DNA of 64,000 bases. Origin: Candidatus Bathyarchaeota archaeon. Its GTDB lineage: Archaea; Thermoproteota; Bathyarchaeia; Bathyarchaeales; Bathycorpusculaceae. Each line of letters opens with the position of its first letter. Positions within the stretch are counted from its first letter, which is position 1. A model generated the notes under the pieces. It worked only from the letters and a program-made list of their open reading frames with translations, made no database searches and had not been told where the DNA came from. A program made the translations under genes and the position numbers. This document shows positions 97 to 12,761 of the stretch, piece by piece. The stretch covers positions 719,555 to 783,554 of the forward strand of contig CAWHVC010000001.1 in the NCBI GenBank assembly GCA_963832745.1. Reading direction: 5' to 3'.

Positions 97-1714
97 TTAT
101 TTCATGATGGCTTTTAGATCTTCGTCTGCAGTGGCGATTGGCATGATGTTGAATTTCTCAACCAGAACTTTGAGGATGTTTGGCGTGATAAATGCGGGTA
201 GGCTTGGTCCGATGCGTATGTCTTTTATGCCCAAGTACAGCAGCGATAGGAGTATGGCTACCGCTTTTTGTTCATACCATGACAACACAATCGAAAGTGG
301 CAGGTCATTAACGCCAACATGGAATGCGTCAGCTAAAGCTTGAGCGATTTTTACTGCAGAGTACGCGTCATTGCATTGACCGATATCGAGCAGTCGCGGA
401 ATTTCGTCGATTGTGCCAAGGTCTTTGTCGAAGAATCGGAATTTGCCGCATGCCAATGTGAGGATTACTGTGTTTTTTGGTGCCTTTTCTACGAGTTCCG
501 TGTAGTAGCCTCTGGAGCCTTTTGCGCCGTCACATCCACCGACGAGCAGGAACTTTTTGATGTGTCCATCTTTTACGCTTTGAATCACCTTGTCAGCGAC
601 GCTTAAGACTGCATTTCTGCCGAATCCGACCATGACGGTTTTGCCTTCGGTGTCAGCTGGGAAACCAGGCATTTCAAGAGCTTTCTGAATGACTTGCGAG
701 AAGTCACTGTTTTCGATGTGTTTGACCCCTGGCCAACCTACTGGTCCAGCGGTGAAGATATTGCTGCTGTAGCTGTCCATGGGTTTTTGGATGCAGTTTG
801 TAGTCATCACTATTGGGCCTGGGAACTGAGCGAATTCTTTTTGTTGGTTAAACCATGCTGTGCCGTAGTGTCCGTAGAAGTGTGGGTAAGCTTTGAGTTT
901 GGGGTAACCGTGGGTTGGAAGCATTTCGCCGTGAGTGTAAACGTAGATTCCTTTGCCTTCTGATTGCTTGAGAATTTCTTCGAGGTCGGCAAGGTCGTGT
1001 CCTGAAACAAGAATCGCTTTGCCCTTCTTTGCGCCCAGCGGCACTTTTGTTGGGATTGGATGACCATAAGTTTCTGTGTTGCCGGCGTCAAGTAGTTCCA
1101 TGGCGCGAATGTTGACTTCTCCGCACTTGAAAACTAAGCCTACAAAATCGTTAACGCCAAGGGACTTGTCTAAGGGGGCTGCTAAGCCTTGATAAATAAA
1201 GTTGAAGACTGCTTCATCCTTCTTGCCCAAAATGTAAGCGTGATACGCGTAAGCGGCGACTCCTTTTAATCCGTAGGTTAGAAGCCACTGTAGTGAATGC
1301 AGGTCAGGGTCAATGGTTGTGTTAGCGTTTATTCCAACTTTTTTGCCCTGAGCAATTAAGCCCTCCATTGAAGCGTTCAACTGGCTGAAATGCTGTTTCT
1401 ATTTTGAGTTGCTTTTCAACTTGTCCCTGAAGTTCCTCAGACTCTCTTAGATACTTAACTATCGAGTCGGGATCAAAATTTACGTTAGTCAGCGTTACAA
1501 ATAGAGCTTCGGCGATGAAAACGTCGATTTTTTCGTCTTTGAAACCAGATTCTTTTGCTTTATTCATAAGCTGGCTTAATTCGCGTAGCTTGTAAACCAA
1601 AAGGTCTTGGAGTGTGGCTACCTGCGGGTTTTTGCCGCACACACCCATAATGGTGCAGCCTTGTCCTTTGGCTGTTTGTTCACATTGGTAACAGAACATT
1701 TGATTTTGGCTCAT
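97..1714 (-). CDS. hcp: Hybrid cluster protein (hydroxylamine reductase), split by one frameshift near 1381
   Basis: N-terminal MFCYQCEQTAKGQGCTIMGVCGK motif in ORF 1322..1714; rest (SGHDL, THGEMLP, GGCDG, GQCNDAYS, SWYEQKAV) in ORF 97..1380; removing one base near 1381 joins them. Confidence 0.95.
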
Positions 1715-10744: not shown

Positions 10745-10842
10745 TTAACATCAAATCTCCATAAGACATTACGGCTTAACGGTAAATAGAGGTTGTTAAG
10801 GGCAAAGCAAGATTAAAAATTCAGTGCAGAAAAACAAAAAAA

Positions 10843-11445
10843 TTAGGCTTTAACTGGAGCCTTTGTAACAACACGCGGGGGCTTTGTAACTACAATAGAC
10901 GGTTTCGTGTCAGGTTTAACTGTATCCTCAATCTTAACCGGATACACCGAGTAACCCACACTTAACCTATAAGGTGCCAAAAGCATGCCCCAAATCTTGC
11001 TTAACTCATCAACCGAAAGCGCATCAGGGACCACTTTTAGGTCCTCCCCAGCTTCGCTTATGCTGCCTTGAAGGTTTGAACCACGTATAATCGGCGTTTC
11101 ATGGAACAGCTGCATAATTTTGCCCAAAACGATTTGGTCATTCTCGCCATTTTGGGTTATAGGCGTGATTAGGTAACGGAGGTTTAGGTAGAGTGGAGGC
11201 TTTGACGGGTTCTGGGTGGGTGTCGGCTGGTTGCGCATGCTGGCTAGTTCGGTGACGTTGTAAAGGTAAACTGAGATTTGTGGCGGTTTTAATTCGGCGG
11301 CGTCTTTAGGTGAAAGGAAATTGATTTGCTCAGGGTTTCTGATGATGACGCTTGTTTGTTTGTCATCTTTGAAAGCGTTCCAGATTCGGTTGGCAAGAGT
11401 TTTGCTTGCACCGTTAATATTGTTAAAGCTCACCTGGTCTGTCAC
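10843..11445 (-). CDS. DUF4255 / Pvc16 (Afp16)-like tail terminator-cap protein
   Basis: ISVYLYNVTE..MRN, PPLYLNLRYLITP, DQIVLGKIMQLFHETP, LSVDELSKIW, YRLSVGYSVYPVKI. Confidence 0.85.
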   Translation of the reverse strand: MTDQVSFNNINGASKTLANRIWNAFKDDKQTSVIIRNPEQINFLSPKDAAELKPPQISVYLYNVTELASMRNQPTPTQNPSKPPLYLNLRYLITPITQNGENDQIVLGKIMQLFHETPIIRGSNLQGSISEAGEDLKVVPDALSVDELSKIWGMLLAPYRLSVGYSVYPVKIEDTVKPDTKPSIVVTKPPRVVTKAPVKA

Positions 11446-11451
11446 CTAAGC

Positions 11452-11886
11452 TTATTTTACGCGTTGCATTGTTTCGAAAACGATTTCTAAGGTTTCAATG
11501 GCTACTTCGTTGGCTTTAGCGTTTAAGTCGGGTCCTTTGTATTTGCTTGGCCAAGCGTTTGTGAAGTCCCAGCGGGCTGCTTCAACGCCTTCCTCGTCAA
11601 TAAGGATTACGGAAACGTTTTTGCGCATGGTGTTGATTTTTCCTTGTTCAATCATTTTCCGCCAATTATAAAGCTCCAATGAGTTAGTGATACCCCATTT
11701 CAGAATTAACGGGTTGTAGGCTGTGGCGCCGGGCAGTTTTTGAGTGGTAACTGATGTGCCTTCTCTGTGTTCGATTACTTCGCTTGCGGATTCAGGCACG
11801 ATTACTTCACAAAAGTTTGCTTGTGCAACACCGGTTATTTCGATTCTGAAACGATGATTTCGAAAAGGGTCTTTTCTGGTTGACAT
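11452..11886 (-). CDS. Phage tail tube protein (T4 gp19-like, Afp1/5-Pvc1 family)
   Basis: RKDPFRNHRFRIEI, EVIEHREG, KLPG, LILKWG, LYNW, RKNVSVIL, RWDFTNAWPSKYKGPDLNA, VAIETLEIVFE; likely start MSTRKDP. Confidence 0.92.
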   Translation of the reverse strand: MSTRKDPFRNHRFRIEITGVAQANFCEVIVPESASEVIEHREGTSVTTQKLPGATAYNPLILKWGITNSLELYNWRKMIEQGKINTMRKNVSVILIDEEGVEAARWDFTNAWPSKYKGPDLNAKANEVAIETLEIVFETMQRVK

Positions 11887-11975
11887 GTTATCGTTAACTC
11901 CAAACATGTACTCAGATGAAGGAATTATTATGTTTTGCCAAAAACTGCAAAGGCAACGCCGTGGATTTAACGCGT

Positions 11976-12320
11976 TTAATTTTTGGTTATGAAATCGCGG
12001 AGGGCTTCTTTTACAGGCATATTAAAAAGCGCACGCAAACGGTCCAAAGATTCCATGCCGCTGGAGGTTATTGCGTAATATTTGGTGCGTCGCCTGCCTT
12101 TTTGTGTCCATTCTCCAACAATGAAGCCGTCTTTTTCCATCTCATAAAGAAGCGGGTAAACTATACCGGAAGGCAAATGCTGTCCAGTTAGATGTTCAAG
12201 TTCTTTGACAAGCCCGTAGCCTGACATGGGCTTCTGGTTAACAAGCCACAGAATAATGCCTCTGCTGAAGTTTGTTACGATGTTTCTTATCGCTTCCCTT
12301 TCAGCCTCATCCACTGTCAA
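11976..12320 (-). CDS. PadR family transcriptional regulator
   Basis: PMSGYGLVKEL, GIVYPLLYEMEKDG, RRTKYYAITSSG. Confidence 0.9.
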   Translation of the reverse strand: MTVDEAEREAIRNIVTNFSRGIILWLVNQKPMSGYGLVKELEHLTGQHLPSGIVYPLLYEMEKDGFIVGEWTQKGRRRTKYYAITSSGMESLDRLRALFNMPVKEALRDFITKN

Positions 12321-12431: not shown

Positions 12432-12761
12432 ATGGTTGACGTAGTCTGTGCTTTCCAAAGAGGATTAGATAGGCCTCTTATTCTTTGGCTTATCTCTAAA
12501 GGACCTGTTCACGGATATGAAATCAACAATGAAGTAAAACGGTTAACTGGTCGACGTCTTAAGCCTGCAACCTTGTATCCACTGCTTAACAAATTGGAAG
12601 ATGACGGTTTTCTGGTAAGCGAATTGATTGAAAAAGGCCGCCGGAAACTGCGATGCTACCGTTTGACGGAGAAGGGAGAAAAATTCCTGTGTAAAACGTC
12701 AGAATTGTTCAAGTTGCCCCTTAGACGGATAATTGCGGATTTGCTAGGCGAACAAGACTAA
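12432..12761 (+). CDS. PadR family transcriptional regulator
   Basis: PVHGYEI, ATLYPLLNKLEDDG, RCYRLTEKG. Confidence 0.9.
   Translation: MVDVVCAFQRGLDRPLILWLISKGPVHGYEINNEVKRLTGRRLKPATLYPLLNKLEDDGFLVSELIEKGRRKLRCYRLTEKGEKFLCKTSELFKLPLRRIIADLLGEQD

What the first reader, a model, noticed from the sequence alone, without database searches (positions are those of the whole stretch)
10843..12320. Orphan tail tube + cap module: a sheath-less, baseplate-less relative of contractile injection systems in an archaeon
Seen: an intact gp19-like tube gene followed 6 bp later by an intact DUF4255 gene, co-oriented behind a PadR gene, among housekeeping genes with no sheath, baseplate, spike, AAA+ ATPase, capsid or integrase anywhere in 64 kb. 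Established: in Afp/PVC-type eCIS the tube (Afp1/5) and terminator cap (Afp16/Pvc16, DUF4255) normally sit in a large cluster with those parts. Inference: either a satellite of a split eCIS locus, or a domesticated minimal system in which tube hexamers polymerise into a capped non-contractile filament or nanotube with a new job (cargo storage, scaffold, anti-viral decoy for tail assembly). Both ORFs lack the decay seen in nearby pseudogenes, which argues for selection.
Basis: partly seen in the sequence, partly recalled or inferred. Interest (0 to 1): 0.82.

Follow-up and report, generated by a model that had tools for sequence, protein, structure and literature searches.

The report
Baseplate-less tail tube, cap and sheath
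A soil or sediment archaeon keeps only three parts of a phage-tail-like injection machine (inner tube and end cap as a gene pair, the sheath gene far away) and none of the firing parts, and related species have kept the same parts intact, so they probably now do some other, still unknown job.

Summary
Window 11452-11907(-) encodes a full-length gp19/Afp1-type tube (PF06841, 9e-41) and 10843-11445(-) a Pvc16_N cap (PF14065, 4e-37), among housekeeping genes.

The 99%-complete genome has no gp25, Baseplate_J, GPD, base_V, PAAR, CIS_tube or Afp15-type WHD hit. It is not sheath-less, though: one intact 359-aa Afp2/Pvc2-like sheath gene lies 608 kb away, also alone.

The adjacent tube+cap pair recurs in 12 of 101 sampled congeners (Bathy-6 Bathyarchaeia). 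It forms one clade next to the tube of complete eCIS clusters in two congeners. NG86 dN/dS is 0.1-0.2, against 0.05-0.11 for neighbouring genes.

Nine of the 12 carriers also have an intact solo sheath, and 11 of 12 lack gp25.

My best reading is a vertically inherited, selected trunk remnant (tube, cap, sheath) of an Afp/PVC-type eCIS that cannot fire. That it assembles as a baseplate-independent capped polymer is inference. I rate it a new variant of a known kind.

The parts
11452..11907 (-). Inner-tube gene (gp19/Afp1/Pvc1 type). The longest ORF is 151 aa; the probable real start is ATG 11886, giving 144 aa.
   Evidence: PF06841 E=9.4e-41. TIGR02241 E=5.3e-42. PDB chains 9r9h_B 2.7e-16, Afp1 2.8e-9, Pvc1 2.9e-9. 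The ATGTCA start is conserved in all 12 pair loci.
10843..11445 (-). Cap / tube-terminator gene (Pvc16_N = DUF4255 domain only, plus a Lys/Pro-rich tail). The longest ORF is 200 aa; the probable real start is GTG 11433, giving 196 aa.
   Evidence: PF14065 E=4.4e-37. A profile of 15 relatives hits solved caps: 9gts_0A 5.7e-4, Algo1 7adz_0A 6.8e-4, Pvc16 7.9e-4, All3327 1e-3. Relatives begin MSFNN at this position. The SD-like AGGTGA at 11447-11442 was read.
11925..11934 (-). TATA-box-like AACATAATAA about 43 nt upstream of the tube ATG. It is followed by GGAG (11901-11898), an SD-like motif.
   Evidence: Read. AACA(T/A)AATA is conserved in the 4 syntenic genomes. SD-like GGAG/GAGG motifs precede the ATG in the other pair loci. 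Function is inferred, not shown.
10830..10842 (-). Oligo-T tract (T7 G T5) directly after the cap stop codon, a likely archaeal terminator. It would make tube-cap a two-gene transcription unit separate from the Cache-domain gene downstream.
   Evidence: Read. Function is inferred.

Best explanation
The tube-cap pair is a real two-gene operon. It is what remains, in this lineage of Bathy-6 Bathyarchaeia, of an Afp/PVC-type extracellular contractile injection system (eCIS) that some congeners still carry whole. Together with one unlinked, one-domain (Afp2/Pvc2-like) sheath gene 608 kb away, the genome keeps exactly the repeating trunk of the machine (tube, sheath, distal cap). It has lost baseplate, spike, tube initiator, tape measure and ATPase.

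Shown here:
- The three genes are intact and native in composition.
- Pair and solo sheath each form one clade of intact genes in partly conserved chromosomal neighbourhoods, which I read as vertical inheritance.
- They are under purifying selection.
- No baseplate is detectable, including in a single-contig relative.

Inferred:
- Without a baseplate the set cannot be loaded and fired as an injector.
- The proteins most likely still polymerise in the cytoplasm, with a hexameric tube-fold end ring (here the cap) binding or seeding a tube polymer that the sheath can coat.
- That polymer would serve a non-injection role, structural or otherwise.

A sister arrangement in other congeners (tube plus Afp7-like initiator ring, never found together with tube plus cap) fits the idea that one end ring plus tube is the selected unit.
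For: Identity of the parts. The sheath aligns end to end with Pvc2 (query residues 7-355 to chain residues 7-351, E=2e-61).

Own genome (99.02% complete, 5 contigs):
- One tube, one cap and one sheath hit.
- No hits at E<=0.1 for GPW_gp25, Baseplate_J, Phage_GPD, CIS_tube, Phage_base_V and WHD, and none at E<=0.01 for PAAR.
- tblastn with all ORFs of the complete clusters of G100 and G062 found only tube (62-64% identity), sheath core (47-55%) and cap (39-44%), apart from generic AAA and unrelated surface-protein families. One search shows that the G100 cluster is a canonical eCIS.

Relatives:
- Baseplate_J in 0 of 5 pair-carrying relatives, one of them a single-contig genome.
- base_V in 1 of 5. 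PAAR in 0 of 5. gp25 in 1 of the 12 pair carriers.

Recurrence:
- An adjacent pair in 12 of 101 genus genomes.
- It is the only invariably linked unit among the neighbours.
- All 12 tubes form one clade (99/99), which groups (90/94) with the sheath-adjacent tube of the G100 and G062 clusters and G002's AAA-adjacent tube.

Selection (NG86 dN/dS):
- Tube 0.11-0.23 in 11 comparisons.
- Cap 0.10-0.36 in the 6 comparisons with finite dS.
- Sheath 0.10-0.14 in 4 comparisons.
- Neighbours 0.05-0.11.

Sheath:
- 23 solo sheaths of about 360 aa form one clade (100).
- They share partly conserved neighbour genes.
- An intact orthologue is present in 9 of the 12 pair carriers.

Other points:
- GC is native: genome 0.418, tube 0.430, cap 0.463, sheath 0.455.
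- Conserved start, SD-like motif and TATA-like box.
- Assembly logic comes from the T4 tail review PMC3004832 (passages read): the gp48/gp54 platform seeds gp19, the sheath uses the tube as scaffold, and terminators bind the last rows.
- A phage sheath alone self-assembles into polysheaths (PMC6357053, abstract in the search listing).
Against: - There is no expression or protein evidence.
- No fold or complex prediction could be run.
- The modules are not strictly co-dependent. Among the 12 pair carriers, one has the solo sheath split over two frames (G094), one has only a sheath of another lineage (G046) and one has none (G092, 56% complete).
- The sister pair (tube plus initiator) lacks a solo sheath in 6 of 18 genomes, five of them 90-96% complete. 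A seventh, G012, has only a type-C sheath.
- At least 5 genomes have the solo sheath without either pair.
- Pairwise distances of tube and sheath correlate weakly (r=0.20 over 45 pairs; cap-sheath 0.66).
- Co-occurrence across kin is confounded by shared ancestry.
- dS is 0.75-2.5, near saturation, so the dN/dS values are rough.
- In canonical systems the cap ends assembly rather than seeding it.
- Extrachromosomal elements are not in these assemblies.
Confidence: 0.5

Rival explanations
1. Tube and cap act on their own as a sheath-less, non-contractile capped tube or ring stack, for example a container or scaffold. The distant sheath gene is an independently retained gene with its own role.
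For: - Only tube and cap are invariably linked.
- Tube-sheath distance correlation is weak (r=0.20).
- Sheath-only genomes exist (G005, G050, G059, G105, and G077 split) and so do pair-only genomes.
- Solitary Pvc16_N proteins of about 300 aa exist in congeners with no tube or sheath hit, such as G013 at 100% completeness. So CIS parts are reused singly in this group.
Against: - 9 of 12 pair carriers keep an intact solo sheath, and a tenth has it split over two frames, against about 5 among the 71 genomes with neither pair. This comparison is confounded by kinship.
- Sheath, tube and cap all derive from the same eCIS type.
Confidence: 0.2
2. The parts act as interference or decoy proteins. Host-encoded copies of tail trunk parts, above all the terminator cap, would poison tail assembly of infecting contractile-tailed viruses. 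Alternatively they could be spare parts used in trans by a mobile eCIS.
For: - The proteins evolve 2-3 times faster than neighbouring housekeeping genes (dN 0.12-0.25 against 0.04-0.08 in the closest comparisons).
- Congeners carry complete eCIS clusters and probable myovirus-like clusters: G100 and G062, and G017 with sheath, tube and T4_baseplate.
Against: - No PADLOC defence family hit for tube, cap or sheath.
- The pair lies in ordinary housekeeping context, not a defence island.
- dN/dS is well below 1 with no sign of an arms race.
- In IMG/VR the nearest tubes are at most 44% identical (19 loci) and no cap relative was found.
Confidence: 0.12
3. The genes are non-functional leftovers of a fragmented eCIS that are simply slow to decay.
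For: - Congeners show a graded series: complete clusters (G100, G062), scattered mini-modules (G079 has tube-cap, sheath and a base_V-PAAR-gp25 trio), and a trio only.
- Different lineages kept different pieces.
- Some copies are broken: the sheath is split in G094 and G077, and tubes carry stop codons in G048, G054, G087 and G045.
Against: - All 12 tube and all 12 cap genes are intact at 41-79% amino-acid identity to the window's copies.
- dN/dS is 0.1-0.2.
- Start codon and SD-like motif are conserved.
- The solo-sheath clade has 23 intact members.
Confidence: 0.1
4. This is a split but complete eCIS, whose baseplate and spike are encoded elsewhere in the cell.
For: - The sheath is indeed unlinked.
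- G079 shows that spike-PAAR-gp25 can sit in a separate mini-module.
- Plasmids and viruses would be missing from genomes assembled from metagenomes.
Against: - Seven Pfam searches of the 99%-complete genome were negative.
- tblastn with two full congener clusters found nothing beyond the trio.
- A single-contig relative also lacks gp25, Baseplate_J, base_V and PAAR.
Confidence: 0.06

Closest known systems
Afp/PVC-type extracellular contractile injection systems (Afp1/Pvc1 tube, Afp2/Pvc2 sheath, Afp16/Pvc16 cap)
   Same: Tube, sheath and cap are clear homologues. The sheath has the one-domain Afp2/Pvc2 architecture over its full length. Complete clusters of this type exist in congeners G100 and G062, and their tube is 62-64% identical to the window's.
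   Different: - No baseplate wedge, hub or spike, PAAR, tube initiator, tape-measure candidate or Afp15-type ATPase anywhere in the genome.
- The genes are dispersed (a pair plus a solo gene 608 kb apart) instead of one operon of 15-28 genes.
- Gene order is tube then cap. In the congeners' clusters it is cap, a 211-aa gene, sheath, tube.
CIS with short (N-domain-only) caps: AlgoCIS Algo1 (197 aa), Anabaena tCIS All3327 (192 aa), and the 225-aa cap chain 9gts_0A
   Same: The cap is about 196-200 aa, Pvc16_N only, like these solved caps. The caps inside the congeners' complete clusters are also 203 aa. So the short cap is normal, not a truncation.
   Different: Those caps work in complete machines with baseplates. 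Sequence similarity is low (profile E about 6e-4 to 1e-3).
Orphan hcp/vgrG/PAAR islands of type VI secretion systems
   Same: Trunk or tip genes sit away from a main cluster (PMC13098142, abstract in the search listing).
   Different: T6SS orphans usually supply a main T6SS cluster in the same cell (my own knowledge). Here no main cluster exists in the genome.
Phage T4 tail trunk (gp19 tube, gp18 sheath, gp3/gp15 terminators)
   Same: The division of labour and assembly logic are the same. The tube family is named after gp19 (PMC3004832 passages).
   Different: T4 needs the baseplate with its gp48/gp54 platform to start the tube, and the parts belong to a virion. Here there is no virus context.
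One-domain sheath homologues already noted in Bathyarchaeota (Evseev et al. 2022, PMC9230969)
   Same: That paper modelled a 321-aa one-domain sheath from a Bathyarchaeota MAG and noted sheath homologues in several archaeal phyla (passages read).
   Different: In the passages shown by my term search, that paper gave no analysis of gene context, of missing baseplates, of the tube-cap pair or of selection.

Membership tests
Afp/PVC-type eCIS (complete system) | Inner tube protein (Afp1/Pvc1, PF06841) | tested here: met
   PF06841 E=9.4e-41. One copy in the genome.
Afp/PVC-type eCIS (complete system) | Contractile sheath (Afp2-4, PF04984 plus PF17482) | tested here: met
   One 359-aa gene at G000:C1:121554-122633. 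It is unlinked, 607,764 bp from the pair.
Afp/PVC-type eCIS (complete system) | Cap / terminator (Afp16/Pvc16, PF14065) | tested here: met
   PF14065 E=4.4e-37. One copy in the genome.
Afp/PVC-type eCIS (complete system) | Baseplate wedge: Afp11 (Baseplate_J) and Afp9 (gp25). Afp11 together with Afp8 marks 98.7% of eCIS loci (PMC8213781 passage). | tested here: not met
   No hit at E<=0.1. tblastn with the congeners' proteins was negative.
Afp/PVC-type eCIS (complete system) | Hub and spike: Afp8 (Phage_GPD, Phage_base_V) and PAAR | tested here: not met
   No hit. tblastn negative.
Afp/PVC-type eCIS (complete system) | Tube initiator (Afp7-like, CIS_tube plus LysM) and Afp15-type AAA ATPase with WHD | tested here: not met
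   PF19266 no hit. PF22977 no hit. Only generic AAA matches at 26-29% identity.
Afp/PVC-type eCIS (complete system) | One contiguous operon of 15-28 genes (PMC8213781 passage) | tested here: not met
   A two-gene unit among housekeeping genes, with the sheath solitary beside complex I genes.
Integrated tailed virus (myovirus-type provirus) | Capsid, portal, terminase or integrase genes near the tail genes | tested here: not met
   None among the 64 ORFs of the window, and none next to the sheath. Whole-genome searches for capsid or terminase families were not run.
Known anti-phage defence systems (PADLOC-DB 2.0) | Match of any component to a defence-system model | tested here: not met
   0 families for tube, cap, sheath, PadR or the Cache protein.
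Functional contractile assembly (works like a CIS trunk) | Tube, cap and sheath bind one another and polymerise | not testable with these tools
This needs co-expression and electron microscopy.

The most novel reading that the evidence does not exclude
A self-sufficient, baseplate-free sheath-tube filament in archaea. A single tube-fold end ring (the cap in this lineage, an Afp7-like initiator ring in sister lineages) would be enough to seed a sheathed tube polymer in the cytoplasm. The trunk of a contractile injection system would then have been exapted as a cytoskeleton-like, or possibly still contractile, cellular structure that injects nothing.
Probability: 0.2. Interest if true: 0.85.

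Novelty: new variant of a known kind. Interest (0 to 1): 0.62.

Why it matters
Contractile injection systems are treated as all-or-nothing machines, and surveys find them by their baseplate and hub genes. A set of trunk genes (tube, cap, sheath) kept intact and under selection in about a dozen archaeal species that have no baseplate at all would mean the trunk has a use of its own. It would give a natural minimal system for asking how tube and sheath polymerisation can start and stop without a baseplate. It would also extend CIS-derived biology to Bathyarchaeia, an abundant uncultured group for which no such system turned up in my literature searches. If it is only a long-lived remnant, it still documents step by step how an eCIS cluster breaks into mini-modules.

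Tried and rejected
- **Complex prediction** (tube, cap and sheath, with the sheath as partner) was not available. Nothing was folded.
- **The look-up of sequencing runs**: no RNA holder listed. There were only three small-share DNA rows, which I did not lay on the sequence.
- **Earlier-findings look-ups** by place, by sequence and by one word set gave nothing.
- **PadR as part of the module** is rejected. It is adjacent in 4 of 12 pair loci (G000, G008, G067, G072).
- **The Cache-domain gene as part of the module** is rejected. It is adjacent in 3 of 12 (G000, G008, G067), and an oligo-T tract separates it from the cap.
- **A 125-aa "conserved neighbour" of the sheath** turned out to be the antisense frame of a gene I read, by eye from its sequence, as a fasciclin-domain gene.
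- **The 291-aa and 122-aa ORFs beside the sheath** have no family hit and are not conserved there.
- **The partner of the sister pair** is not a diverged cap (hhalign probability 0.2%).
- **The 135-aa ORF beside the G075 cap** is not a tube.
- **IMG/VR** holds no close tube (at most 44% identity, 19 loci) and no cap relative.
- **PADLOC**: no hit for tube, cap or sheath.
- **Distance correlation** as a test of co-evolution was weak or ambiguous.
- **Literature**: full-text searches and term look-ups in PMC11566945, PMC9230969, PMC11697101, PMC10848311 and PMC8213781 turned up no description of orphan tube-cap or trunk-only sets in Bathyarchaeia. Supplementary tables were closed. Those of PMC11697101 include pangenome and proteome tables that might show whether such proteins were detected.
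Full report
**1. Observation**

On the minus strand the window carries three genes in a row:
- a PadR gene at 11976-12320 (114 aa);
- a 151-aa ORF at 11452-11907;
- six bases further on, a 200-aa ORF at 10843-11445.

Pfam gives Phage_T4_gp19 at E=9.4e-41 over profile positions 2-133 of 134 for the first ORF. It gives Pvc16_N (formerly DUF4255) at E=4.4e-37 over positions 5-178 of 180 for the second. NCBIfam TIGR02241 (E=5.3e-42) and PHROG tail tube phrog_4542 (E=3.6e-16) agree for the tube.

By sequence the tube matches solved CIS tubes: 9r9h_B at 2.7e-16, Afp1 at 2.8e-9 and Pvc1 at 2.9e-9. A profile of the cap and 14 relatives matches solved caps, several of which are also about 190-225 aa: 9gts_0A, Algo1, Pvc16 and All3327, at E from 6e-4 to 1e-3.

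All 64 ORFs of at least 90 aa in the window were scanned against Pfam. They are housekeeping genes, such as the A-type ATP synthase operon, polyphosphate kinase, SufBD, purA and ABC transporters. There is no sheath, baseplate, spike, capsid, terminase or integrase family, and no tRNA.

**2. Gene-level anatomy**

- Alignment with relatives puts the tube start at ATG 11886 (144 aa) and the cap start at GTG 11433 (196 aa).
- All 12 pair loci start the tube with ATGTCA behind a GGAG or GAGG motif.
- The four syntenic genomes share a TATA-like AACA(T/A)AATA box about 45 nt upstream.
- A T7GT5 tract follows the cap stop codon.
- I therefore read tube-cap as its own two-gene transcription unit. This is inference from sequence.
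- GC content is native: genome 0.418, tube 0.430, cap 0.463.

**3. The rest of the genome**

The window is G000:C1:719555-783554 in a 3.02-Mb assembly of 5 contigs that is 99.02% complete.

- Six-frame family searches find one tube, one cap and one sheath.
- The sheath gene lies at C1:121554-122633 (359 aa, PF04984 plus PF17482), 607,764 bp from the pair. It stands alone among membrane-protein genes, a gene that looks fasciclin-like by eye (no family search was run on it), a zinc-ribbon gene and a complex I operon.
- It aligns end to end with Pvc2 (355 aa, E=2e-61) and Afp2 (E=3.7e-50). Its best match is chain 9ezm_A at E=3e-116.
- No hit was found at E<=0.1 for GPW_gp25, Baseplate_J, Phage_GPD, CIS_tube, Phage_base_V or the WHD of Afp15-type ATPases, nor at E<=0.01 for PAAR.

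As a more sensitive test I took every ORF of the complete eCIS clusters of two congeners, G100 and G062. One search shows that the G100 cluster has two tubes, a 696-aa sheath, CIS_tube plus LysM, GPD, base_V, PAAR, gp25, a 1069-aa Baseplate_J, Tail_P2_I, WHD plus AAA, eCIS_core plus OmpA, and a 203-aa cap. I ran these ORFs by tblastn against the whole genome. The only cluster genes with a counterpart were:
- the tube (62-64% identity);
- the sheath core (47-55%), which lacks the cluster sheath's insert of about 350 aa;
- the cap (39-44%).

The other matches were generic AAA proteins at 26-29% and unrelated surface-protein families. The genome thus holds exactly the trunk of the machine: tube, sheath and distal cap.

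**4. Recurrence and taxonomy**

Records of relatives carry these titles:

| Title | Loci (of 13) |
|---|---|
| Candidatus Bathyarchaeia or Bathyarchaeota archaeon, several labelled Bathy6 | 9 |
| uncultured archaeon | 2 |
| Methanocella sp. | 1 |
| Amycolatopsis samaneae (34% identity, the only bacterial locus) | 1 |

In a sample of 101 genomes of the genus (G000 included), family hits were:

| Family | Genomes with a hit |
|---|---|
| Pvc16_N | 39 |
| Sheath | 39 |
| gp19 tube | 45 |
| gp25 | 10 |

- In 301 genomes of the class, Pvc16_N was found only in the window's family: 6 of 48 genomes besides G000, and 0 of 252 in other families.
- A window-like tube directly followed by a window-like cap occurs in 12 of the 101 genomes: G000, G008, G046, G057, G067, G069, G070, G072, G079, G092, G094 and G113. 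ORF spacing is 6-19 nt.
- Clustering the neighbours shows that tube and cap are the only invariably linked genes. Other neighbours (LPG-synthase-like membrane protein, SufBD, ABC ATPase, radical SAM) recur in part of the loci. I read that as a rearranging but related chromosomal region.
- PadR is adjacent in 4 of 12 loci and the Cache-domain gene in 3 of 12.

**5. Selection and descent**

NG86 dN/dS of G000 against each relative:

| Gene | dN/dS | Comparisons |
|---|---|---|
| Tube | 0.11-0.23 | 11 |
| Cap | 0.10-0.36 | 6 with finite dS (5 saturated) |
| Solo sheath | 0.10-0.14 | 4 with finite dS of 9 |
| Radical SAM neighbour | 0.06-0.08 | 6 pairs among the 4 syntenic genomes |
| PadR neighbours | 0.05-0.11 | 6 pairs each (two PadR genes) |

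dS is 0.75-2.5, so these values are rough. All 12 tube and all 12 cap genes are intact at 41-79% identity to the window's copies.

- In a maximum-likelihood tree of 30 tubes, the 12 pair-borne tubes form one clade (99/99). It groups with the sheath-adjacent tube of the G100 and G062 clusters and with an AAA-adjacent tube of G002 (90/94).
- In a quick tree of 32 sheaths, the 23 solo sheaths of about 360 aa form one clade (SH-aLRT 100). They sit apart from the cluster sheaths, from a sheath-plus-tube pair type, and from G046's 400-aa sheath.
- The major split among pair carriers agrees in both trees. G000, G008, G067, G072 and G069 fall on one side, and G070 and G079 on the other.

**6. Do the three genes belong together?**

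Of the 12 pair carriers:
- 9 have an intact solo-clade sheath;
- G094 has it in two frames;
- G046 has only a sheath of another lineage (43% identity);
- G092 (56% complete) has none.

Only G079 has gp25. There it sits in a separate base_V-PAAR-gp25 mini-module among unrelated genes. Baseplate_J was found in 0 of 5 carriers tested, one of them a single-contig genome. base_V was found in 1 of 5. PAAR was found in 0 of 5, a set that included G000.

Over all lineages of sheath and tube, the 101 genomes divide as follows:

| Content | Genomes |
|---|---|
| Both sheath and tube | 33 |
| Sheath only | 6 |
| Tube only | 12 |
| Neither | 50 |

These genomes are kin, so this is not a test of dependence, and exceptions run both ways. 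Pairwise protein distances correlate at 0.54 (tube-cap), 0.66 (cap-sheath) and only 0.20 (tube-sheath) over 45 pairs.

**7. A sister module**

Eighteen other congeners carry a different pair: a 165-aa gp19 tube followed by a 225-260-aa protein.
- The partner matches Afp7-like, LysM-type tube-initiator chains (9rce_H at 2.2e-5, Afp7 at 0.23) but has no LysM domain.
- It is unrelated to the cap by profile comparison (probability 0.2%).
- It is found in none of the 12 tube-cap genomes.
- It is under purifying selection: median dN/dS 0.08 for the tube and 0.16 for the partner.
- Eleven of the 18 genomes have the solo sheath. Carriers of the two pair types are interleaved in the solo-sheath clade.

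In this genus the recurrent unit is therefore a tube plus one tube-fold end ring, usually together with the solo sheath.

**8. Mechanism**

What is established, from passages of PMC3004832:
- In T4 the baseplate's gp48/gp54 platform seeds gp19.
- The sheath polymerises on the tube.
- Terminators bind the last rows of tube and sheath.

A phage sheath protein alone forms polysheaths (PMC6357053, abstract in the search listing).

From this I infer that a genome with tube, sheath and cap but no baseplate cannot build a loaded, triggerable injector. My best reading (confidence 0.5) is a vertically inherited, selected trunk remnant of an Afp/PVC-type eCIS. Its proteins would still polymerise in the cytoplasm, with the cap ring holding or seeding a tube that the sheath can coat, and would serve a non-injection role.

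Rival readings:

| Reading | Confidence |
|---|---|
| Tube and cap act without the sheath | 0.2 |
| Interference with viral or eCIS tail assembly, or spare parts | 0.12 |
| Slow decay | 0.1 |
| Baseplate encoded on an unseen element | 0.06 |

**9. Novelty**

A 321-aa one-domain sheath in a Bathyarchaeota MAG was modelled before, without context analysis as far as the passages I read show (PMC9230969). eCIS surveys define loci by clustered core genes and report one archaeal phylum (PMC8213781 passages). The haloarchaeal CIS paper does not mention Bathyarchaeia (PMC11566945). Neither the Bathy-6 genome paper nor the Bathyarchaeia virus paper mentions sheath or contractile parts in the main text. 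Five full-text searches gave no description of trunk-only sets. Supplements were closed.

Earlier notes of this scan report orphan tube-cap pairs and solo sheaths in bacteria. They are unchecked leads, and they suggest this may be one instance of a wider pattern. I rate the finding a new variant of a known kind, with interest 0.62.

**10. Limits**

- There is no expression evidence: no RNA holder was listed.
- No structure or complex prediction could be run.
- Gene calls in relatives are simple longest-ORF calls from my own scripts.
- The genomes other than G000 are samples of the genus, and absence is "not found in those searched".
- Co-occurrence was not corrected for phylogeny.

Noticed in passing
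Outside the window: G000:C1:121554-122633 (+) = L005:1554-2633: A solitary 359-aa one-domain sheath gene (Afp2/Pvc2-like) beside a complex I operon. Orthologues (57-78% identity) form one clade of 23 genes across the genus, with partly conserved neighbour genes.
   Followed up: yes
L022:9077-10276(-), L024, L025, L026, L027, L028, L031 (congeners G012, G002, G010, G014, G015, G001, G007): A second recurrent orphan pair: a gp19 tube (165 aa) plus an Afp7-like tube-initiator homologue without LysM (225-260 aa). It occurs in 18 of 101 genus genomes, never together with the tube-cap pair, and is under purifying selection.
   Followed up: partly
L021:9801-11398(-) (G012). Sheaths of the same clade are in G054, G058 and G103.: A third mini-module: a 382-aa sheath directly followed by a 150-aa tube that groups with the second (Afp5-like) tube of complete clusters. 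In G012 it is embedded among giant PQQ_2/Ig-domain surface-protein genes.
   Followed up: partly
L117:9642-10957(-) (G079): A three-gene base_V (206 aa), PAAR (96 aa), gp25 (123 aa) mini-module among NUDIX and S51 peptidase genes, in a genome that also has the tube-cap pair and the solo sheath on other contigs. It looks like an intermediate stage of eCIS fragmentation.
   Followed up: partly
L119:1075-1962(-) (G013). Also G016, G047 and G053, and sister-genus genomes G327 and G330.: Solitary Pvc16_N proteins of about 295-320 aa with a C-terminal extension of about 130 aa that looks helical by eye (no fold was run). G013, G016 and G047 have no tube or sheath hit (G013 is 100% complete); the others were not all checked.
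   Followed up: no
L023:9055-10257(+) (G002): A 196-aa AAA ATPase ORF directly upstream of a 132-aa tube that is 64% identical to the window's tube. This may be another fragment of the same eCIS lineage.
   Followed up: no
window 97-1714 (-): The hybrid-cluster (prismane) protein gene is split into two overlapping ORFs: 130 aa covering profile positions 1-96 and 427 aa covering 91-513. This is a frameshift, either a pseudogene or an assembly error.
   Followed up: no
L005:8370-11913 (+) (own genome, next to the sheath): Two complex I antiporter-like subunit genes each appear broken into 2-3 overlapping ORFs (partial Proton_antipo_M hits). These are further frameshifts, in contrast with the intact sheath gene nearby.
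   Followed up: no
L111 (12,453-bp contig): A contig carrying the tube-cap pair is titled 'Methanocella sp.' in its public record, while its gene content and the other relatives' titles point to Bathyarchaeia. This is probably a labelling or binning issue.
   Followed up: no
window 11976-12320 (-) and 12432-12761 (+): Two divergently transcribed PadR paralogues (about 35% identical to each other). Each is 77-93% identical to its orthologues in three relatives, next to a B12-binding radical SAM gene. This is a conserved regulatory pair unrelated to the tail genes.
   Followed up: partly
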